Below, in pieces: positions 9,207 through 29,254 of a stretch of DNA of 32,000 nt. The stretch comes from Desulfocapsa sulfexigens DSM 10523. GTDB taxonomy: Bacteria > Desulfobacterota > Desulfobulbia > Desulfobulbales > Desulfocapsaceae. The stretch lies in contig NC_020304.1 of the NCBI RefSeq assembly GCF_000341395.1, forward strand, positions 2,640,001 through 2,672,000. Reading direction: 5' to 3'. Under the pieces are notes generated by a model. It was not told the DNA's origin. It searched no databases and was given only the letters and a program-made list of their open reading frames with translations. Numbering within the stretch: position 1 is the first letter of the stretch; each line of letters opens with the position of its first letter. A program made the translations under genes and the position numbers.

Positions 9207-9337
9207 CAGAGAGTGGAGAAGGCAGGTATTATCCAGATTGACGCTTTTCCTTGAGTCCGTCTGAAAAAGGATCACAGTGGGTGTGGTACAGGATAAGAAA
9301 GCCCCTGTTTTTAGTAACAGCTACTGCCTTAATGATT

Positions 9338-9502
9338 CCTGATTACCATCGAAACTCAGCTTTGCAACCCGGAGTTGTTCCGTGTCGATTATATGGGACG
9401 CCATAAACCCATCCCTGGAGGCTCTGCTGCGGCCGTCCAGGCCGCAGATGCCCATATAATCAACACGAACTAACTCCTCCTCAGACGTTAGTGGTAATCA
9501 GG
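9338..9502. mobile_element. MITE-like non-autonomous element, copy A (165 bp)
   Basis: Perfect 11-bp terminal inverted repeats CCTGATTACCA (9338-9348) and TGGTAATCAGG (9492-9502). A perfect 8-bp direct repeat TAATGATT flanks it (9330-9337 and 9503-9510). The interior is roughly 90% identical (aligned by eye) to the reverse complement of 22053-22237. It has no credible ORF. Confidence 0.75.
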
Positions 9503-15500: not shown

Positions 15501-16424
15501 ATGAATGCATTGGCGGAAACAGGTAGCCATAATGCGAATGAAGACACACTTCTGACGTTGCATATTAGTCAGGTTCCTGAAAATATCGGTCTCATTCGTA
15601 TTGTAAAAGATTTGGGTAATCCGAATAGAGAAGTTATAACTGATGGCTCCTGGTCAAAAGCAGAAATTAGACGTCTCAATAAAGAATATCCCCAGCTTGT
15701 GATTGAACTGCAGGTAACCTCTGAAGAAAAACTCTCTCTGCTGGTAAATCAGGTGACGAGCATCACAGAGAAAAGTTTTACGCTGGAAAAAATGTTCAAG
15801 GATGTAAATGCGGTAAAGGAAAGCTTAAAAGAGCGCGTAAGGGAGGTTTTCGATGATCAGATAATCTCCTTTAGAAATCGAATGACCATGACTTCATACG
15901 GTTTCAATGATGATATCTTAACAAAAAATGCTTCTTCATACAGTAACCTGATTACTTACTCAACCCAGTGTTTCGTCATTGGAATGCTCTTTGCAGAATA
16001 TCTTGATGAACTGAGTAGTCTCCAGAGAAATGTCTTAGGGAAATGTCTTATTCTTCACAAAATTGGGTATATAGAGACAATGAATGACTCTTCTAGCTTG
16101 TTAGATAGGACTGTTGCAATTTTAGAAAGTTCTGGATATGAAAGGGCCATTATACAGTTTGCAAAGAATCAAGGAACAGTAAGGTTTAAAAATAATAAAC
16201 TGAAAAATTTACTTCGAACCACAGAAATAGGGAAAATAGTAACCCATTATTGTAATTGTACAGTGAACTACCCAAGAATTACTCCACCATTTAAGACAAT
16301 AGAAAAATTCGAGGAAATTTTGGAGATATCAGGCAGACGGCGGGAGATGCTATTTGAACCAACCCTGTTGACAAAATTTGTTGAAATGATTCGTAAAGGG
16401 TTGGAGATGCCAGTAAGTAGGTAA
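15501..16424 (+). CDS. Hypothetical protein (orphan); C-terminal half weakly resembles a degenerate HD/HD-GYP-type domain
   Basis: 307-aa ORF in a low-GC stretch (about 28-40% GC in the 60-nt lines I counted, against ~48% in one neighbouring-gene line I counted). LILHKIGY sits where HD-GYP proteins have LLHDIGK, and the C-terminal FEPTLLTKFVEMI resembles the FDPxLxxxF tail. The catalytic residues are not conserved. Confidence 0.6.
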   Translation: MNALAETGSHNANEDTLLTLHISQVPENIGLIRIVKDLGNPNREVITDGSWSKAEIRRLNKEYPQLVIELQVTSEEKLSLLVNQVTSITEKSFTLEKMFKDVNAVKESLKERVREVFDDQIISFRNRMTMTSYGFNDDILTKNASSYSNLITYSTQCFVIGMLFAEYLDELSSLQRNVLGKCLILHKIGYIETMNDSSSLLDRTVAILESSGYERAIIQFAKNQGTVRFKNNKLKNLLRTTEIGKIVTHYCNCTVNYPRITPPFKTIEKFEEILEISGRRREMLFEPTLLTKFVEMIRKGLEMPVSR

Positions 16425-16452: not shown

Positions 16453-16502
16453 CGACTCCAGGAATCGAAGTCCAGTATTCTATCCAGCTGAACCATGAGT
16501 GT
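16453..16502 (-). pseudogene. tRNA-Arg-like 5' fragment (acceptor 5' strand through variable loop; no T-arm)
   Basis: The minus-strand ACACTCATGGTTCAGCTGGATAGAATACTGGACTTCGATTCCTGGAGTCG matches about 40 of the first 50 nt of the intact tRNA-Arg(UCG) at 29005-29081. Similarity stops where the T-arm should begin, and the anticodon stem has mismatches. Confidence 0.55.
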
Positions 16503-16592
16503 TGTTGTGTGGTGCTTCAGATAATAAATATCTCTTATGTCCTGTTGGGAGTGCTCTTTTTTTTGTGGTGGCACAAATAACGCGGGAAACGC

Positions 16593-19169
16593 CTATTCAG
16601 GCGGTTCAATTTTTGATTGTAATTCCGGTTCTAAGTTATCAATGTTCCTTGCTGCTTCATCGGCTTTAAATTTGGCCTTGATCGCACGACGATGAGCTTT
16701 TTCGGCATCGGACTCAGCATTAGCTATCTCTCTTTGCAGTTTTTCCCCCTCTTTAGGTGGAACTTTTTCGGGAACACTTTTCTCTTCCAGAATACTGAGT
16801 TGACTGCTCAGCTTTTCCACAAGCATCATTTTTTCAGCGGCAATTTTTTCAGCTGCCGCTGATTTTTTCAGTGCCAATTCCAGCTCATCGGTTGCCCGGC
16901 CGATCTGAGCCGGCAGACCTTCCTCAGGAGTTGCGTCAAGATCTATATCTTCAGCTGCCATAACCAGAGCGCAAACTGGAAGACGGGGGAGAGAGCGTTC
17001 AAAAGACTTCCCGGTGAGGTCAAGTAGACGATACTGGTCAATCTTCAGAGGAAGAAATACAAAAGCCGCATCTGCTGACTGCTGAACAATAGTGTCCGCT
17101 TCAAAGTTCTCAATGATTTCAGCGACGGCATCAATACGCACATCCTCCATGATTTTATTCAATTTTTCCTTTTCACGCTCAATGTGCAGCGTGTCGCTTT
17201 GAGTCAACACTCTGAGAGTAGCTTGATCCCATGGTTTATGTCGAGTCATCAGGTAGGCTAAAAGCAACATCAGGCGACTGGTACCATTTCCCTGCCACCA
17301 TATATCAATCCGGCGCCCTGCCATCGGTTCATCCAAAAGTCGGATCCAGGATTCATCGTCCATACTCAAGATCACGAGGTTTTTATGTTGTCGGAAAATA
17401 AGTTTAAGGTTTTTTGCGTAGGTATAGGCTCCAAGACCCGAAAGTGCTTTTACGGAGGCACCCATCCAGTTAAGAACCACCGTATTGGGACGCAAAGGCC
17501 CAATACCAGAACTTTGAAGAAGAACCCCCATGGCCTGGGTAAAATTTGAAGAACTTACGGTAAGGGGAAACATATCATAGTGGCCAGAAGCTATGGCCTG
17601 AGTCAATGCAAGGTGAGCAGCTTTATGCATTGCTCTGGCTTCCGCTCCCTCGCCTTCGATAATCTGTACAGCCTCTGTGAAGCCGCTGCCTCCTTCAATC
17701 CAGGAGGAAAATGTCAATAGAGGGATCCGATGCTCGGGAGTTTGGGTAAATACCAGCAGATGTGGACGCCAGTCGCGGGCATGCTCAGGTTCCTTGCCGG
17801 CGGCGAGAAGATGCCTGCGTACCTGCTGTAAATGGTGGGAACGTGAACTGTCAGCCCATCGGGTTGGACCGGCTGTGCGTTTCAGATATTGGTAAACAGC
17901 AAACAGCAGGGCAATAGCGGCAGCACCGCTTTTGAGATCAATTGCAAGCATGGCTGCTAAACAGAGAAAAAAACCTAATAAACTCAGGGAAGGTGAAAAC
18001 CATTTGAATCGTGGACGGAAAAAAGGACTCTCGGTTTTGGCCTCAAAATAGGTAGCATAGTTGAGCAATCCATATGAAATAAGGAAAAACATCGAAACGA
18101 CGCTGGCAACAAGATTTAATTTTCCAAGGGCAATTGTGACAAAGGCAATACCGGAGGAGAAGAGTAGGGCTCGACGAGGGTTAGCAGCAGGTCCATTTAC
18201 CTTGGCAAAGGGGGTCAGTAAAGAAAAAATCTTATCAGCAGCTAGGGATTGCAGGATCCGTGGCGCCCCCATAAGGGAAGCCATGGCAGAGGAAAGGGTG
18301 GCTGCAATAACCCCGGCATCAATAAGGAATCCAACTGCAGATACGTTTTTCATGGCACCGGAATCCGAAGAGAGAGTGGCATTTGACAGAACCCCGGCAA
18401 ACAGGATCGCTACGGAAAAATAGACAGCAATAGAGAGTCCAACGGCCCAGAAAGTTCCCAGAGGGATACTTTTTCCTGGATCAGCAAGGTCCCCGGACAT
18501 GCTCACCCCCTGAGTGAATCCGGTGACGGCTGGAAAGAAAATGGCAAAGAGGGCCCAAAAAGGAACACCGTTTTCCGGTGATGCCCAGTTGGCTGCAAGA
18601 ATTGCTGCATCCCAACTGCGGATTGTGCCAGCAAAGAAAGAGAGCAGGGCGGCGGCCAGCAGGGCCATGACGCCGAATTGAAATCTGGCGGCCCAGTCTG
18701 CACCCTGCCAGGCGAAAAAGAAAAGAAACACCACCGCACCGGATGCTATCAGCTGTATGGTCAGGTGGTGCATCCAGGGGAAAAAAGTACCAATAACCTC
18801 TGCAAATCCCATGCAGTAAAAAGCAATGGATACGCTTTGGGCCAGAAAAAGAACCAGCCCTATGGATCCACCAAATTCCGGGCCAAGGGTTCGGGAAATA
18901 AGATAGTAATCACCACCACCTTTAACCTTGAGGTTAGTAGCTACTGCAGACAGGGAAATGCTGGTAAGTACACTGATGAGATTTGCCAGGGCAATAATCA
19001 GCAGGGCTTTTCCCAGCCCGGCATTTCCCACCACATAACCCAGCCTCAGAAAGAGTATAATCCCTAGAATAGTAAGGATGCTGGGGGTGAAGACACCGTT
19101 AAAGGTACCCAGCTTACCTGCCGTTATTTTGGCTTCCGACGCTGCGGGGGGGGTGCTGAGTTCGTTCAC
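16593..19169 (-). CDS. Cation-chloride cotransporter family (SLC12/CCC-like, APC superfamily) with a large cytoplasmic C-terminal domain
   Basis: 858 aa. The N-terminal LGTFNGVFTPSILTILGIILFLRLGYVVGNAGL is the CCC signature region. It has ~12 TM segments, an SLC12-type C-terminal domain, and a K/E-rich coiled-coil tail. Confidence 0.88.
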   Translation of the reverse strand: MNELSTPPAASEAKITAGKLGTFNGVFTPSILTILGIILFLRLGYVVGNAGLGKALLIIALANLISVLTSISLSAVATNLKVKGGGDYYLISRTLGPEFGGSIGLVLFLAQSVSIAFYCMGFAEVIGTFFPWMHHLTIQLIASGAVVFLFFFAWQGADWAARFQFGVMALLAAALLSFFAGTIRSWDAAILAANWASPENGVPFWALFAIFFPAVTGFTQGVSMSGDLADPGKSIPLGTFWAVGLSIAVYFSVAILFAGVLSNATLSSDSGAMKNVSAVGFLIDAGVIAATLSSAMASLMGAPRILQSLAADKIFSLLTPFAKVNGPAANPRRALLFSSGIAFVTIALGKLNLVASVVSMFFLISYGLLNYATYFEAKTESPFFRPRFKWFSPSLSLLGFFLCLAAMLAIDLKSGAAAIALLFAVYQYLKRTAGPTRWADSSRSHHLQQVRRHLLAAGKEPEHARDWRPHLLVFTQTPEHRIPLLTFSSWIEGGSGFTEAVQIIEGEGAEARAMHKAAHLALTQAIASGHYDMFPLTVSSSNFTQAMGVLLQSSGIGPLRPNTVVLNWMGASVKALSGLGAYTYAKNLKLIFRQHKNLVILSMDDESWIRLLDEPMAGRRIDIWWQGNGTSRLMLLLAYLMTRHKPWDQATLRVLTQSDTLHIEREKEKLNKIMEDVRIDAVAEIIENFEADTIVQQSADAAFVFLPLKIDQYRLLDLTGKSFERSLPRLPVCALVMAAEDIDLDATPEEGLPAQIGRATDELELALKKSAAAEKIAAEKMMLVEKLSSQLSILEEKSVPEKVPPKEGEKLQREIANAESDAEKAHRRAIKAKFKADEAARNIDNLEPELQSKIEPPE

Positions 19170-19190: not shown

Positions 19191-19652
19191 CTATTCTATC
19201 TTCAGCAAATCCAATATTTCCTTACAGGAAGGGATATCAGCCATGGAGCTCCCATAATGAACGTAGCGGAGCCTGCCGGACAAATCAACCAGCATCTGCG
19301 CTGGAAGTCTGCCTAACTTGAAGGGATTGACTTCCTGTCCATATAATTGTTGAATGGTATGCTCCGGATCAGGTATGCCGATAAACGGTAACTCTTGCTT
19401 CATCCAGTATTTCTGGAAAATGTCGGCATTTTCAGATCCAATGACGACTATCTCTGTATTCAATCTAACAAAATTTTGATATTCCTGATGCAACTGCGCC
19501 AGATGCCTGCGGCTGAATGGTCAGGAGAAACCACGATTCAGAACCAACAGCACATTCATTCGGTCAATGAAAGATGAAAGTGTAAAACTGTTTCCGTTAC
19601 AATCTGTAGCTGTGAACCCTGGTGCATGTCCGTCTCGTTCGACTCTAGCCAT
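19191..19652 (-). CDS. Selenoprotein: AhpC/TSA (peroxiredoxin/redoxin-like, thioredoxin fold) protein with in-frame UGA (Sec44)
   Basis: The ATG at 19650-19652 is preceded by GGAGG. My translation is MARVERDGHAPGFTATDCNGNSFTLSSFIDRMNVLLVLNRGFS-U-PFSRRHLAQL, which runs in frame into the 100-aa track ORF. The TGA is at 19521-19523. The U sits where this family has the redox Cys (xxGFWCPxCRRxL pattern). Total length is 153 aa. Confidence 0.75.
19484..19525 (-). promoter_or_regulatory. Candidate bacterial SECIS-like stem-loop at and downstream of the UGA
   Basis: The mRNA reads CCUGA-CCAUU-[CAGC CGC AG GCAU CU GCG(CA) GUUG]-CA-UCAGG. An outer 5-bp helix (CCUGA/UCAGG) contains the UGA. An inner imperfect helix puts its apical loop about 15-20 nt after the UGA. 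Folded by hand only. Confidence 0.35.
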
Positions 19653-19661
19653 GCTAACCTC

Positions 19662-19997
19662 CTACTTTTTGTGACAGGTGGAGCAGGATTTTCCTTTTGG
19701 AACTTGCTTTTCTTCATGACACGGCCAGCAGAGTTTTTTGTGGAAGTCATTCCCGCTTCCGCTGATGTTAACTATGGCAACCTTAAGTTTCCCTCCCTTT
19801 GGATCGGCGTGACAACTTATACATTCCAAAGTTTTTTGGTGTGTGGCATGGGGGAAAATAACAGCCTCCTTCTTCCCTTCTATATGAAAACGTGCCTTAA
19901 GATCTATTTCGGCAGGACCCGTTTCGCTGGAAAGTCCCAGTGCAGGGAATACCAGTACACCCATGAAAATAAATCCCGTAACCAGCTTGCTGTTCAT
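19662..19997 (-). CDS. Periplasmic triheme cytochrome c (c7/PpcA-like, class III)
   Basis: 111 aa with a signal peptide and three CxxCH motifs (CISCH, CWPCH, CSTCH). The PpcA-like context is FPHATHQK...C..CH...CHEE...CSTCHKK. Confidence 0.85.
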   Translation of the reverse strand: MNSKLVTGFIFMGVLVFPALGLSSETGPAEIDLKARFHIEGKKEAVIFPHATHQKTLECISCHADPKGGKLKVAIVNISGSGNDFHKKLCWPCHEEKQVPKGKSCSTCHKK

Positions 19998-22052: not shown

Positions 22053-22237
22053 CATGATTACTACAAATCCTCAGCCTACCCGCCTGAGGAGGATTTCTTT
22101 TCGTGTTGATTATATGGGCATCTGCGGCCTGGACGGCCGCAGTAGCAGTAGAGCCCCCAGGGATGGGTTTATGGCGTCCCATATAATCGACACGGAACAA
22201 CTTTGGGTTACAAAGCTGATTTTGGATGGTAATCAGG
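22053..22237. mobile_element. MITE-like non-autonomous element, copy B (185 bp), inverted relative to copy A
   Basis: Terminal repeats are CATGATTACTA (22053-22063, matching the consensus at 9 of 11 positions) and TGGTAATCAGG (22227-22237). A perfect 8-bp direct repeat AATAAAAA flanks it (22045-22052 and 22238-22245). The left copy contains the sulP stop codon TAA (22047-22049). Confidence 0.75.
22069..22101 (+). terminator. Terminator-like hairpin carried inside MITE copy B, just downstream of sulP
   Basis: CCTCAG-CCTACCCGC-CTGAGG (22069-22089) is followed by AGGATTTCTTTTC. This segment is partly deleted in copy A. Confidence 0.4.
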
Positions 22238-22356
22238 AATAAAAAAGAACAACAAACAGCGATGAGCGGGGGGAGAAGAGCCGCCAGGACTGGCATTTCG
22301 GGAGCAGATCATAATGATGAAGCTTTTTTTCTTTGTTGAAGTGCATGTGAAACTGT

Positions 22357-25169: not shown

Positions 25170-25763
25170 TCAAACCAGATTTTTGTTAACGAATTCCCAA
25201 TTGATGAGGTTTTGAATAAAAACATCAAGATAGGTACCCCGCGCATTTTGGTAGTCCAGGTAATAGGCGTGCTCCCAGACATCAACCGTTAATAACGGTT
25301 TGATATTATGGGCTATGGGGGTGTCAGCATTTGCAGTTTTCATAATTGTCAGTTTGTTGTTTTTTATAACCAGCCACGCCCATCCACTTCCGAATTGTGT
25401 AAGAGCGCTATTTTTTAACTGCTCAACAAATGTGTCATACCCACCAAAGTCAGCAACTATTTTTTCAGCGATGGCTCCCATTGGCATCCCGCCACCCCCA
25501 GGTTTCATACAGTTCCAGTAAAATGTGTGGTTCCATACCTGTGCTGCATTGTTATAGATTGCGGTTTTACTCTCATCTTTTACTGTCTTTCTGATAATAT
25601 CCTCCAGGGTGTCTCCAGCCAAATCTGTGCCTTCTATGAGTTTGTTAAGATTGGCAACATAGGTACTATGGTGTTTTCCATGATGAAATTCCAGGGTTTG
25701 TGAGCTGATGTGTGGAGCCAGACCGTCTTTTTGATAAGGAAGATCAGGCAGCGTAATCGTCAT
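25170..25763 (-). CDS. sodB: Iron superoxide dismutase
   Basis: 197 aa with LPDLPY...LEFHHGKHH, AAQVWNHTFYW (Fe-type pattern), and DVWEHAYYLDYQN. Confidence 0.95.
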   Translation of the reverse strand: MTITLPDLPYQKDGLAPHISSQTLEFHHGKHHSTYVANLNKLIEGTDLAGDTLEDIIRKTVKDESKTAIYNNAAQVWNHTFYWNCMKPGGGGMPMGAIAEKIVADFGGYDTFVEQLKNSALTQFGSGWAWLVIKNNKLTIMKTANADTPIAHNIKPLLTVDVWEHAYYLDYQNARGTYLDVFIQNLINWEFVNKNLV

Positions 25764-27498: not shown

Positions 27499-27563
27499 TT
27501 CTTAACAGTGAGCAGTGCAACTACTCCTGATGTTTGTTACTAGAAAACTACCTTAAGGTTATT

Positions 27564-28877
27564 ATGCAGGATATACAGCAGGTTATGGTGTTTGTGGAAC
27601 GTCTTGTGGCCCAGGATATCGGCAAGGCTGTAAAAATCCTTGAAGAAACACCTAGAAAAGATGCGGCCGCAATTTTGGCAAACATGTCACCTGAAAGTGT
27701 GGCGCAGATAATCCGCAGACTACAGACCAGTTTTTCTGCAACCCTCCTTGAAGAGCGGAATGTGGAGTCAGCGGCATCCATCCTCACCTCCCTTCCACCT
27801 AATCAGGCGGCGTCTATCGTCATGCATCTTTCTACACAATCCCGGGATCGCCTGCTGCCCCATATCTCCGGTACACTTTTAGAAAAAATAAGGGATTTGT
27901 ATACCTATCCGGAAGGGAGCGTGGGGAGGTATATGTCAACGGATTATCTTACTTTCCTGAAACATGAAGAAGCTGGAGATGTGATAGAAAAAATAAGGGC
28001 GCTTGCCAGTAAAAAGACCTTTCCAGCATCGTATGCCTATGTTGTCGATGATGATGGGATTCTGCAGGGTGTGTTGAATATGCGTGATCTCATGCTTGCA
28101 AGACCAGAGCAGCCTCTTAGTTCTTTTATGATTGCAAATGTTTACACACTTCATTGTTTTCTCGACAGGAGTGAGGCGACCAGGGAGATGGCTAAGCGCA
28201 AATATTTTGCAGCACCTATAGTAGATAATGAAAACAGAATTCTTGGGGTTATCAAAGCTGAAAATTTACTAACCGGCCTCAAGGAGGATGTTACTGCCGA
28301 CCTCTTGAAAATGGTTGGTGCTGGCGGCGATGAGAAAACATTCTCCCCGATCAGTTTTGCCTTGAAAAAGAGACTGCTCTGGCTAAATGTAAACCTGGTC
28401 ACTGCTTTTCTTGCAGCGGCTGTGGTTGCAATGTTTGAGGGTATTATTGCGAAGATAACAATTCTGGCGATATTCCTGCCGGTTATTGCCGGGCAGGGTG
28501 GAAATGCCGGGGCACAATCTCTTGCTGTTGTGATGCGTGGGCTTGTGATGCGTGAAATTCCGGCAAAGAGAGTACGGGAACTCATATGGAAAGAAACACG
28601 TTTGGGAGCAATTAATGGCGTTGCTATTGGAATAGTGACGGCCCTTATTGCCTGGCTATGGCATGGTAACCCATGGTTAGGGCTCGTTATCGGCCTTGGT
28701 ATGATTTTAAATCTGGCCATTGCGGGCCTTGCAGGGAGTTCAATTCCTATCTTGATGAAAAAGATGGGTATTGATCCAGCACAAAGCTCTAGTATCATAT
28801 TGACTACTGTAACCGACGTTATGGGTTTTCTGGCTTTTCTTGGACTTGCTGTGATTTTTCAAGATTATCTTATCTAA
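27564..28877 (+). CDS. mgtE: Magnesium transporter MgtE (MgtE_N, CBS pair, TM domain)
   Basis: The order is an MgtE_N region (AAAILANMSPESVAQIIRRL), a CBS pair, then a TM domain with GQGGNAGAQS. I chose the ATG at 27564, which has AAGG 6 nt upstream. The track ORF begins at TTG 27534. Confidence 0.9.
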   Translation: MQDIQQVMVFVERLVAQDIGKAVKILEETPRKDAAAILANMSPESVAQIIRRLQTSFSATLLEERNVESAASILTSLPPNQAASIVMHLSTQSRDRLLPHISGTLLEKIRDLYTYPEGSVGRYMSTDYLTFLKHEEAGDVIEKIRALASKKTFPASYAYVVDDDGILQGVLNMRDLMLARPEQPLSSFMIANVYTLHCFLDRSEATREMAKRKYFAAPIVDNENRILGVIKAENLLTGLKEDVTADLLKMVGAGGDEKTFSPISFALKKRLLWLNVNLVTAFLAAAVVAMFEGIIAKITILAIFLPVIAGQGGNAGAQSLAVVMRGLVMREIPAKRVRELIWKETRLGAINGVAIGIVTALIAWLWHGNPWLGLVIGLGMILNLAIAGLAGSSIPILMKKMGIDPAQSSSIILTTVTDVMGFLAFLGLAVIFQDYLI

Positions 28878-28958
28878 GAACAGATAAGAATAGGATGTAA
28901 ACCAGACTCGTACGGTTGATGAACTGAGCTGATGGCTGTGGTGGTTTGTAATGAGAAT

Positions 28959-28994
28959 CTCCTTTGGGGCGCATTTCTTTGTGTCCCAAAGGAG
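28959..28994. terminator. 10-bp stem hairpin between mgtE and the tRNA-Arg 3' end (possible bidirectional terminator)
   Basis: CTCCTTTGGG (28959-28968) and CCCAAAGGAG (28985-28994) flank a 16-nt loop. Neither strand has a clear U-tract. Confidence 0.3.
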
Positions 28995-29004
28995 AATCGC
29001 TGTA

Positions 29005-29081
29005 TGGTACACCCAGTAGGATTCGAACCTACGACTCCCGGATTCGAAGTCCGGTGCTCTATCCAGCTGAGCTATGGGTGC
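29005..29081 (-). tRNA. tRNA-Arg (anticodon UCG), CCA encoded
   Basis: The reverse complement is GCACCCA TA GCTC AGCTGGATA GAGC A CCGGA CTTCGAA TCCGG GAGTC GTAGG TTCGAAT CCTAC TGGGTGT ACCA. This is a 77-nt cloverleaf with the anticodon loop CU-UCG-AA and a G1-U72 wobble. Confidence 0.93.
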
Positions 29082-29254
29082 TTTTTATATGCTGCTTCAG
29101 ACAATATATATTTATTCCACTACAAGTGTCGGCATGTATCTGCTGTTACCGATGGTTGTGAGCGAAAAAAAACTGCAAGCATCCTAGGCAACTTGAACAG
29201 ATGATATGCAGTTATTGGGAAACAAATAATCTACTCTGCTAATCTTGTCAATTC

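What the first reader, a model, noticed from the sequence alone, without database searches (positions are those of the whole stretch)
19191..19652. Hidden selenoprotein: redoxin/peroxiredoxin-like gene with in-frame TGA, truncated to 100 aa by ORF calling
Reading the minus strand from an SD-preceded ATG (GGAGGTTAGC-ATG, 19650-19652) gives 43 sense codons, then TGA at 19521-19523. The frame then continues without interruption into the 100-aa track ORF, for 153 aa in total, which is normal for AhpC/TSA-type redoxins. The TGA falls in ...LVLNRGFS-U-PFSRRHLAQL..., exactly where Cys-containing members carry the redox-active Cys of the (W)CPxC(R)R motif. The second Cys position is Ser here (UxxS). 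A stem-loop that includes the UGA can be drawn at 19484-19525. Sec-containing Prx-like/thioredoxin-fold proteins are established in deltaproteobacterial selenoproteomes, so the family is plausible. This locus would still be mis-annotated by standard pipelines.
Basis: partly seen in the sequence, partly recalled or inferred. Interest (0 to 1): 0.7.

Follow-up and report, generated by a model that had tools for sequence, protein, structure and literature searches.

The report
Mis-annotated selenocysteine redoxin gene
This is a real 153-codon gene for a peroxiredoxin-like, thioredoxin-fold protein whose active-site residue is selenocysteine encoded by an in-frame UGA; it is an ordinary example of a known kind of bacterial selenoprotein that gene callers routinely cut in two.

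Summary
On the minus strand there is an SD-preceded ATG (19652-19650), a TGA (19523-19521), and an open frame to the TAG at 19193-19191.

The Sec interpretation is well supported:
- **Homology spans the TGA.** Pfam AhpC/TSA covers residues 9-130.
- **The TGA is conserved.** All 83 homologous loci examined, from five or more phyla, carry TGA at this codon.
- **Sec/Cys pairing holds.** More distant homologues carry Cys there, in a C-P-F-C motif.
- **Both halves are translated.** Each is under purifying selection.
- **TGA is otherwise a stop.** It ends seven other genes in the window.
- **A SECIS-type hairpin follows.** It lies at 19503-19484 with an invariant AGUU loop 25 nt after the UGA. It shows compensatory base changes and strongly suppressed synonymous variation, and it is absent from Cys homologues.

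The protein is not a true peroxiredoxin. Sec occupies the first position of a CxxC-type motif. The window belongs to a monophyletic U-P-F-S sub-clade that has lost the resolving Cys.

Sec-containing Prx-like families, including a UxxS form, are already catalogued. Sec machinery could not be checked. I rate this a new member of a known kind, of modest interest.

The parts
19191..19652 (-). Complete selenoprotein coding sequence: 153 codons including UGA-Sec at codon 44, plus the TAG stop
   Evidence: Translation. Pfam AhpC-TSA 9-130, E 3.8e-14, and Redoxin 10-142. tblastn matches to residues 1-150 in 80 genomes. dN/dS 0.11-0.18 against relatives. The AF2 model of a 73%-identical relative has pLDDT 85.7.
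19657..19662 (-). Shine-Dalgarno AGGAGG, 5 nt upstream of the ATG; it overlaps the TAG stop of the upstream cytochrome c gene
   Evidence: Read directly. The ATG aligns with the Met start of nearly all homologues.
19650..19652 (-). ATG start codon
   Evidence: The start position is conserved across family loci.
19521..19523 (-). In-frame UGA = predicted selenocysteine codon 44 (context UGA-C)
   Evidence: TGA in 83/83 homologous loci. Cys in more distant homologues. Aligns with the first Cys of the ResA CxxC. Lies at the N-terminus of helix 45-56 in the model.
19512..19514 (-). AGC = Ser47, at the position of the resolving Cys (UGC) in 74 other family members; this defines the U-P-F-S sub-clade
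   Evidence: the UxxS sequences form one exclusive clade of 7. Codon 47 is TGC in 74/74 UxxC members.
19484..19503 (-). SECIS-type hairpin: 5' arm UCUGGCGC (19503-19496), loop AGUU (19495-19492), 3' arm GCAUCAGG (19491-19484). It has one internal C.A mismatch (19498 with 19489).
   Evidence: The conserved 6-bp core has double-sided compensatory changes at 3 pairs among 66 sequences. Loop and closing pair are invariant. Synonymous variation is suppressed at codons 52-55. The hairpin is absent from 4 Cys homologues. UGA+40 nt folds to -8.8 kcal/mol with this hairpin in the MFE structure.
19662..19997 (-). Upstream neighbour: small triheme c7-type cytochrome gene, probably co-transcribed (9-nt gap)
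   Evidence: Three CxxCH motifs in the translation. NCBIfam cytochrome c7 / QrcA-like, below cutoffs. JGI call: Cytochrome_C7 (weak). The adjacency is kept only in the closest relatives L085 and L086.
16593..19169 (-). Downstream neighbour: 858-aa cation-chloride (K-Cl) cotransporter-like permease; its start is 21 nt after the redoxin stop
   Evidence: NCBIfam TIGR00930, E 1.9e-140, below cutoff. The adjacency is kept only in L085/L086.

Best explanation
The locus encodes one 153-residue thioredoxin-fold protein of the AhpC/TSA (Prx-like) superfamily. Codon 44 (UGA) is decoded as selenocysteine.

The inferred decoding mechanism is the standard bacterial one. A hairpin inside the coding sequence, with its AGUU loop starting 25 nt after the UGA, recruits SelB carrying Sec-tRNA(Sec) to the ribosome, so that UGA is read as Sec rather than as a stop.

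Sec44 sits at the N-terminus of the first helix. That is the position of the nucleophilic first Cys of a CxxC motif. Most family members are U-P-F-C and would cycle through an intramolecular selenenylsulfide. The window gene belongs to a stable sub-clade that is U-P-F-S and has no conserved replacement Cys. Its Sec most likely acts as a lone selenolate. It would be oxidised by a peroxide, disulfide or sulfenic substrate to a selenenic acid or a mixed selenenylsulfide. An external thiol would then reduce it, much as in glutathione peroxidase (UxxT) or 1-Cys enzymes.

What is shown: the gene structure, the conserved UGA, the Sec/Cys pairing, the fold and active-site position, and the conserved, covarying hairpin linked to the UGA. 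What is inferred: actual Sec insertion, SelB dependence, and the catalytic chemistry and substrate.
For: (1) One gene, not two. The Pfam AhpC-TSA hit covers residues 9-130 and crosses codon 44. Eighty genomic loci align over residues 1-150. dN/dS is 0.14-0.38 upstream and 0.09-0.14 downstream of the TGA.

(2) Conserved recoding site. TGA is present in 83/83 loci, from Desulfobacterota, Syntrophia, Spirochaetota, Chloroflexota, Bacillota and Acidobacteriota. The 'full-length' database proteins with Trp at position 44 are TGA at the DNA level; this was checked for P0001 and P0009.

(3) Sec/Cys pair. Homologues P0123, P0125, P0127, P0128 and P0129 have C-P-F-C at positions 44-47.

(4) Standard genetic code. 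Seven of 21 other window genes end in TGA, and none has an internal TGA.

(5) SECIS.
- Pair 40:51 is GC 37 / GU 19 / AU 8 / UA 1; pair 41:50 is CG 60 / UA 5; pair 42:49 is GC 63 / AU 2. Nineteen cells changed on both sides, against 6.7 +/- 1.8 in shuffles (0/500). Slid controls pair in only 22-50% of cells, against 87%.
- Leu54 is TTG in 81/81 and Gln53 is CAG in 81/81, while other conserved Leu and Gln positions use all their codons.
- The hairpin is absent from four Cys homologues.
- It meets the published bSECIS criteria (PMC13188914): a 4-nt loop, G at loop position 2 followed by U, 25-nt spacing, and -8.8 kcal/mol.

(6) Active-site geometry. Residue 44 immediately precedes helix 45-56 in a pLDDT-85.7 model of P0001, a 73%-identical relative. 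The best structural matches are BCP peroxiredoxins (TM 0.86) and ResA. In sequence alignments, position 44 matches the first Cys of the ResA CxxC.

(7) The UxxS state is maintained. It defines a monophyletic clade of 7 with shared co-substitutions, including L085, which has diverged to dS about 0.3.
Against: - No selA, selB, selC or selD lies in the 32-kb window. The rest of the genome could not be searched.
- The window's hairpin carries a C.A mismatch found in no other family sequence of alignment A2; its closest relative L085 shares it. The hairpin alone is -6.0 kcal/mol, against a family median of -9.9, so recoding efficiency may be reduced.
- There is no experimental evidence of Se incorporation.
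- The chemistry of the UxxS form is pure inference, and the neighbouring genes are not conserved across the family, so they give no functional clue.
Confidence: 0.88

Rival explanations
1. Decaying selenoprotein gene. The lineage has lost, or is losing, efficient Sec insertion. The UGA now mostly terminates, and the locus is a pseudogene or yields only fragments.
For: The window's hairpin has an uncompensated C.A mismatch and is among the weakest in the family (-6.0 kcal/mol). The resolving Cys has been lost. Sec machinery was not seen in the window.
Against: - The mismatch, the TGA and both open halves are retained in L085 at dS about 0.3, with dN/dS 0.145 overall and purifying selection on both sides of the TGA.
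- Extra base pairs at the stem base (C-G, U-G) partly compensate for the mismatch, and UGA+40 nt still reaches -8.8 kcal/mol.
- The C47S change is shared by a whole clade with co-substitutions, which does not look like random decay.
Confidence: 0.06
2. UGA is read through, but as a standard amino acid (Trp or Cys by near-cognate tRNA, or under a reassigned code) rather than as selenocysteine.
For: Gene callers using code 4 produced 'full-length' proteins with Trp at position 44. The UGA-C context is known to be leaky (own knowledge).
Against: - TGA serves as the stop for 7 of 21 other genes in the window, and no other gene has an internal TGA, so the code is standard.
- Position 44 is the catalytic nucleophile, where homologues have Cys. 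Trp there would kill a redox site.
- A conserved hairpin that meets the bSECIS rules and is found only with the UGA forms has no role in simple leakiness.
Confidence: 0.04
3. Two independent small genes (a 43-aa peptide and a 100-aa protein starting at the TTG), or an assembly or sequencing error that created the TGA.
For: This is how automatic pipelines annotate the locus.
Against: - The same TGA is present in 83 independent assemblies.
- The domain model and the structural model need both parts to form one thioredoxin fold, and the 100-aa piece would lack the active site and the first beta-strands.
- The N-terminal part is conserved in frame across phyla.
Confidence: 0.01

Closest known systems
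[quoted passage not shown] Sources: PMC13188914 table; PMC2398784 'Prx-like 1/3'; PMC1976440.
   Same: The Pfam domains are the same (PF00578 and PF08534). Sec is in the first position of a UxxC or UxxS redox motif. The host range is the same: anaerobic Desulfobacterota, known to be rich in selenoproteins. The SECIS lies just downstream of the UGA within the coding sequence. These genes are routinely mis-annotated.
   Different: I could not obtain the catalogued example sequences (WP_010940744.1, MDX2448127.1, HEU0032618.1). It is therefore untested which of these named families, if any, is strictly the same as this NRGFxUPF(C/S)RxH family. No NCBIfam model captures it at its trusted cutoff.
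SelL-related redox proteins / PRX-like2 (NCBIfam NF040769; CDD cd02970; Pfam PF13911)
   Same: NF040769 is the best NCBIfam match (E 4.3e-18, residues 10-105). The redox motif is CxxC-type, and its second position corresponds to the peroxidatic Cys of Prx (alignments; the description of cd02970 is from my own knowledge).
   Different: The score of 65.6 bits is well below the family cutoff of 120, and the match covers only the first two thirds. The window protein has Ser, not Cys or Sec, at the second motif position.
BCP/PrxQ-type peroxiredoxins (e.g. PDB 3drn, 5enu) and the Sec-peroxiredoxin of Eubacterium acidaminophilum (TxxU)
   Same: These are the closest solved folds (TM 0.86, rmsd 2.2 A) and the closest PDB sequence match (E 1.5e-9).
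   Different: In true Prx the catalytic residue is the last position of PxxxTxxC/U. Here Sec aligns with the Thr and that last position is Ser, the Pro is Arg40, and the catalytic Arg aligns with Gln119. The catalytic apparatus is therefore different.
Glutathione peroxidase (UxxT) and TlpA/ResA-type thiol-disulfide oxidoreductases (CxxC)
   Same: All share the thioredoxin fold with the nucleophile at the N-terminus of helix 1. ResA's first Cys aligns with Sec44. GPx shares the pattern of a lone Sec followed by a hydroxyl residue three positions later (motif UxxT in the PMC13188914 table).
   Different: There is no detectable sequence-family relationship to GPx (no PF00255 hit). ResA/TlpA proteins are membrane-anchored and extracytoplasmic, whereas this protein's predicted N-terminus shows no obvious signal or anchor sequence (by inspection only).

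Membership tests
Bacterial selenoprotein gene (general definition) | In-frame UGA conserved in orthologues, with the coding frame maintained on both sides | tested here: met
   TGA in 83/83 loci. tblastn matches cover residues 1-150. dN/dS is below 0.4 on both sides.
Bacterial selenoprotein gene (general definition) | Sec/Cys pair: homologues carry Cys at the aligned position | tested here: met
   P0123, P0125, P0126, P0127, P0128 and P0129 have Cys at position 44. The first Cys of the ResA CxxC aligns there.
Bacterial selenoprotein gene (general definition) | bSECIS hairpin: 3-9 nt loop, 4-16 bp upper stem, G in the first two loop positions, 16-37 nt from the UGA, MFE <= -7.5 kcal/mol (PMC13188914) | tested here: met
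   The loop is AGUU and the spacing is 25 nt. The family stem is 6-8 bp with covariation. In the window, 7 pairs plus one C.A mismatch give -8.8 kcal/mol for UGA+40 nt. The window's upper stem is interrupted after 2 bp, so that criterion is met only marginally.
Bacterial selenoprotein gene (general definition) | Genome encodes selA, selB, selC (tRNA-Sec) and selD | not testable with these tools
   None lies in the 32-kb window: the only tRNA is Arg, Rfam finds only that tRNA, and no Pfam hits to SelA/SelB/SelD were found.
Bacterial selenoprotein gene (general definition) | Selenium demonstrated in the protein | not testable with these tools
   Requires 75Se labelling or mass spectrometry.
Pfam AhpC/TSA (PF00578) / Redoxin (PF08534) superfamily | Score above the gathering threshold over most of the domain | tested here: met
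   PF00578: 53.1 bits against a cutoff of 26, model positions 4-123 of 124. PF08534: 39.4 bits against 26.6. Fold confirmed by Foldseek, TM 0.86 to BCP.
Peroxiredoxin sensu stricto | PxxxTxxC(U) motif with the catalytic Cys/Sec at the last position, plus a conserved catalytic Arg | tested here: not met
   Alignments to 3drn and 5enu show that Sec44 aligns with the Thr, Ser47 with the peroxidatic Cys, Arg40 with the Pro, and Gln119 with the Arg.
SelL-related redox protein (NCBIfam NF040769) | Score at or above the curated cutoff (120 bits) | tested here: not met
   65.6 bits, with only profile positions 3-99 of 173 matched. This is the closest named relative, but the protein is not a member by NCBI's criterion.
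[quoted passage not shown] PMC1976440) | Sequence identity or orthology with the catalogued example (MDX2448127.1); UxxS motif; cd02970 assignment | tested here: inconclusive
   The UxxS motif is met. The main text of the Olavius paper does not describe this family in any searchable way.

The most novel reading that the evidence does not exclude
The U-P-F-S clade (the window, L085, L001/L005, L006, L007, L008 and L015) may be a functionally distinct, previously undescribed lone-selenol enzyme. It would have evolved once from a UxxC selenenylsulfide oxidoreductase through TGC->AGC plus co-substitutions (P73S, L101Q and others). It would work like a glutathione peroxidase or 1-Cys enzyme, with an external reductant, rather than being the same as the catalogued cd02970 UxxS family.
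Probability: 0.2. Interest if true: 0.45.

Novelty: new member of a known kind. Interest (0 to 1): 0.3.

Why it matters
**Annotation.** The gene, and at least 80 orthologues in named genomes, are split or truncated in JGI and GenBank annotation, so the catalytic residue is lost from the databases. No NCBIfam model reaches its cutoff for this family. A dedicated model, together with the very conserved hairpin (…UGGCGC-AGUU-GCGYCA… 22-37 nt after the UGA), would allow automatic correction.

**Biology.** The gene adds a redox selenoprotein to this Desulfobacterota-like organism. The family also gives a clean natural example of an in-frame SECIS constraining protein evolution: the Ala52/Arg55, Met52/His55 and Ala52/Cys55 pairs follow RNA base-pairing. 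The UxxS sub-clade is a natural experiment in the loss of the resolving Cys next to Sec.

None of this overturns current understanding.

Tried and rejected
- **Whole-region RNA fold.** Folding 86 nt around the UGA gave no significant structure (z = 0.39). The signal appeared only by comparison across homologues.
- **Rfam.** The scan found no SECIS family, only tRNA-Arg.
CCUGA/UCAGG is not conserved, so I rejected it as the functional element.
- **A second small hairpin.** The candidate at r10-13/r17-20 has no covariation, and 31 of 66 sequences break one pair. It is not claimed.
- **Other in-frame TGA genes in the window.** There were 24 mechanical candidates. Only this one is protein-like on both sides; one other is a gene junction.
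- **Sec machinery in the window.** None found.
- **Conserved gene neighbourhood as a functional clue.** The cytochrome c and transporter neighbours occur only in L085/L086.
- **Matching the published family names.** The example sequences are not retrievable here, and text searches of PMC1976440, PMC5029168 and PMC2398784 did not settle which family this is.
- **Alternative genetic code.** Rejected on stop-codon usage.

Full report
**1. Observation**

On the minus strand, AGGAGG-TTAGC-ATG places a start codon at 19652-19650. Forty-three sense codons follow, then TGA at 19523-19521. The frame continues for 109 more codons to TAG at 19193-19191. Mechanical ORF listing shows the two pieces as 43 aa and 100 aa, the latter with a TTG start at 19493. 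The local sequence is LVLNRGFS-U-PFSRRHLAQL.

**2. One gene spanning the TGA**

With Cys substituted for the stop, Pfam AhpC/TSA matches residues 9-130 (E 3.8e-14, 53 bits against a cutoff of 26). Redoxin matches residues 10-142.

A search of 5.8 billion proteins found 285 relatives. Most are 100-108 aa and cover only the C-terminal 66% of the query, so they are truncated at the same point. A few 'full-length' proteins of about 152 aa have Trp at position 44. At the DNA level these are TGA; this was checked for P0001 and P0009. They were presumably called with genetic code 4.

A scan of one genome per species found at least 583 related loci. In the best 80, tblastn matches cover residues 1 to about 150. 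All 83 loci in which the motif could be located have TGA at codon 44. The hosts are Desulfobacterales, Desulfobulbales, Syntrophales/Smithella, Spirochaetota, Chloroflexota (Leptolinea sp. HRD-7), Bacillota (Gudongella) and Acidobacteriota.

The window and its relatives show purifying selection on both sides of the TGA. Against L085, dN/dS is 0.38 upstream and 0.10 downstream. Against L001 it is 0.23 and 0.14, and against L006 it is 0.14 and 0.13.

**3. Not a reassigned code or an error**

In the window, seven of 21 other genes end in TGA and none has an internal TGA. A mechanical scan for TGAs with open frame on both sides produced no other protein-like case. The TGA recurs in 83 independent assemblies, which excludes a sequencing error.

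**4. Sec/Cys pair and active-site position**

An exhaustive profile search of 1.84 billion representatives recovered full-length Cys forms. P0123, P0125, P0127, P0128 and P0129 have C-P-F-C at positions 44-47. P0126 has C-S-H-C. P0135, P0138 and P0145 have CxxS or CxxT.

An AlphaFold model of the 73%-identical relative P0001 (pLDDT 85.7) places residue 44 at the N-terminus of helix 45-56, after strand 33-38. This is the canonical thioredoxin-fold active site. Foldseek's best PDB neighbours are BCP-type peroxiredoxins (3drn, TM 0.86) and ResA.

Sequence alignments to solved structures show that position 44 matches the first Cys of the ResA CxxC. Against BCP/AhpC-type Prx (3drn, 5enu), position 44 matches the Thr of TxxC and position 47 matches the peroxidatic Cys. 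Prx's Pro aligns with Arg40, and its catalytic Arg aligns with Gln119.

The protein is therefore Prx-like in fold but carries a CxxC-type redox motif. It is not a peroxiredoxin proper. The best NCBIfam match is 'SelL-related redox protein' (NF040769), but at 65.6 bits against a cutoff of 120.

**5. SECIS element**

A single-sequence fold is not significant (z = 0.39). Across homologues, however, one hairpin is conserved. In the window it consists of:
- 5' arm UCUGGCGC, 19503-19496
- loop AGUU, 19495-19492
- 3' arm GCAUCAGG, 19491-19484

On 66 distinct sequences, the six core pairs form in 87% of cells overall, against 22-50% when the partners are slid. The pair counts are:
- pair 40:51: GC 37, GU 19, AU 8, UA 1
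- pair 41:50: CG 60, UA 5
- pair 42:49: GC 63, AU 2

Nineteen cells changed on both sides, against 6.7 ± 1.8 in shuffles (0/500). The loop and its closing C-G pair are invariant.

Synonymous variation is suppressed exactly here. Leu54 is TTG in 81/81 sequences, whereas other conserved Leu positions use 5-6 codons. Gln53 is CAG in 81/81, Ala52 is GCG in 67/70, and Cys47 is TGC in 74/74.

The compensatory changes alter the protein. Ala52/Arg55 (GCG/CGY) alternates with Met52/His55 (AUG/CAU) and with Ala52/Cys55 (GCA/UGC), so RNA pairing is driving amino-acid covariation.

In four Cys-containing homologues the hairpin is gone. Three of them form 3/6 pairs. The fourth forms 5/6 pairs but has a G-less UUUU loop. 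Leu54 codon variety also returns. The hairpin is thus tied to the UGA.

It fits the published bacterial SECIS model: a 3-9 nt loop, G in the first two loop positions and often followed by U, 16-37 nt from the UGA, and MFE ≤ -7.5 kcal/mol (PMC13188914). Here the loop is 4 nt, G is at position 2 followed by U, and the spacing is 25 nt.

**6. Peculiarities of the window copy**

(a) The window has His55 (CAU) with Ala52 (GCG). This creates a C·A mismatch at pair 41:50, the only one among the 66 sequences. The hairpin alone is -6.0 kcal/mol, against a family median of -9.9. Two extra pairs at the base of the stem help, and UGA+40 nt folds to -8.8 kcal/mol with the hairpin in the MFE structure. The 91%-identical relative L085 (dS about 0.3) keeps the same hairpin, the same TGA and the same frame, so the variant is maintained.

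(b) The second motif position is Ser (AGC) rather than Cys (UGC). The seven UxxS sequences are the window, L085, L001, L006, L007, L008 and L015. They form one exclusive clade in a neighbour-joining tree. They share the substitutions P73S, L101Q, K32M, M51L and L110P. They have no conserved alternative Cys.

It is not conserved, and it would compete with the true 3' arm.

**7. Mechanism**

Shown: a single thioredoxin-fold gene with a conserved UGA at the nucleophile position, and a UGA-linked, covarying hairpin of the bSECIS type.

Inferred from the established bacterial pathway: the hairpin binds SelB carrying GTP and Sec-tRNA(Sec), and Sec is inserted at codon 44. For UxxC members, catalysis would go through an intramolecular selenenylsulfide. 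For the window's UxxS clade, a lone selenolate would be oxidised to a selenenic acid or a mixed selenenylsulfide. An external thiol would then recycle it, as in GPx (UxxT) or 1-Cys enzymes.

The substrate is unknown. The neighbouring genes are a triheme c7-type cytochrome 9 nt upstream and a K-Cl-cotransporter-like permease 21 nt downstream. They are syntenic only in the closest relatives L085 and L086.

**8. Comparison with what is known**

Sec-containing Prx-like proteins have been catalogued since 2004-2008. Examples are:
- 'Prx-like thiol:disulfide oxidoreductase' (PF00578, UxxC/UxxU)
- 'Prx-like 1/3' in the GOS data
- 'Redoxin family protein' (PF08534, UxxC)

These come from the PMC13188914 table, PMC2398784 and PMC1976440. 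Deltaproteobacteria are the classic selenoprotein-rich group (PMC5029168, PMC1976440).

The kind is therefore known. I could not retrieve the example sequences to decide which named family, if any, is identical to this one.

Public annotation does truncate the gene. JGI-aa and 100-aa ORFs on sister contig L086. GenBank MCJ7542715.1 is a 102-aa 'redoxin domain-containing protein'.

**9. What could not be tested**

There is no experimental evidence of selenium incorporation.

**10. Verdict**

This is a new member of a known kind. It has some added value for annotation, and it shows clearly how a SECIS within a coding sequence constrains protein evolution. I put confidence in the selenoprotein reading at about 0.88. 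Interest is modest, at about 0.3.

Noticed in passing
window 27539-29004 (MgtE-type gene at 27534-28877): This roughly 1.47-kb segment, which carries a divalent-cation transporter gene (MgtE_N, CBS and MgtE domains), is absent from the 95-96%-identical sister contig L086 (JGI 3300001419). About 84 nt take its place there. This is a strain-level gene insertion or deletion next to tRNA-Arg.
   Followed up: partly
window 9335-9487 and 22081-22240: A pair of intergenic sequences of about 155 nt, 90% identical and in inverted orientation relative to each other. One copy is also present in L086. They could be a small mobile element, a repeated regulatory element or an sRNA; this was not characterised.
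   Followed up: no
window 16453-16531 vs 29032-29111: An 80-nt stretch between ORF 15501-16424 and the end of the transporter gene is 81% identical to a region that overlaps tRNA-Arg(TCG) at 29005-29081. ARAGORN calls no tRNA at 16453-16531. It may be a tRNA remnant, or an att-like duplication left by an integration event.
   Followed up: no
family alignment A2, columns 40-42 and 49-51 (window 19499-19497 and 19490-19488): The in-frame SECIS forces amino-acid covariation in the protein. Ala52/Arg55 (GCG/CGY) alternates with Met52/His55 (AUG/CAU) in the Bacillota-like members and with Ala52/Cys55 (GCA/UGC) in Desulfofustis and Desulfobulbaceae.
   Followed up: yes
window 19662-19997 (-) and L085 3-191: The c7-type triheme cytochrome gene ends in a TAG that overlaps the redoxin's Shine-Dalgarno sequence, leaving a 9-nt gap. 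In relative L085 the two genes are separated by about 150 nt.
   Followed up: partly
representative proteins P0144, P0196 and P0216: These very long proteins (1188-1717 aa) contain 4-6 separate matches to this redoxin domain. That is an unusual tandem multi-redoxin architecture. I did not check whether they are real or are gene-calling fusions.
   Followed up: no
representative protein P0197: This protein has Gly at the position aligned with Sec44 (RGLGGPYCRRH). It may be another TGA, translated under genetic code 25 by a gene caller. Not checked at the DNA level.
   Followed up: no
window 25170-25763 (-): An Fe/Mn superoxide dismutase gene lies about 5.5 kb from the Sec-redoxin on a contig from a probable anaerobe. 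It is another oxidative-stress gene in the neighbourhood, but no linkage was shown.
   Followed up: no
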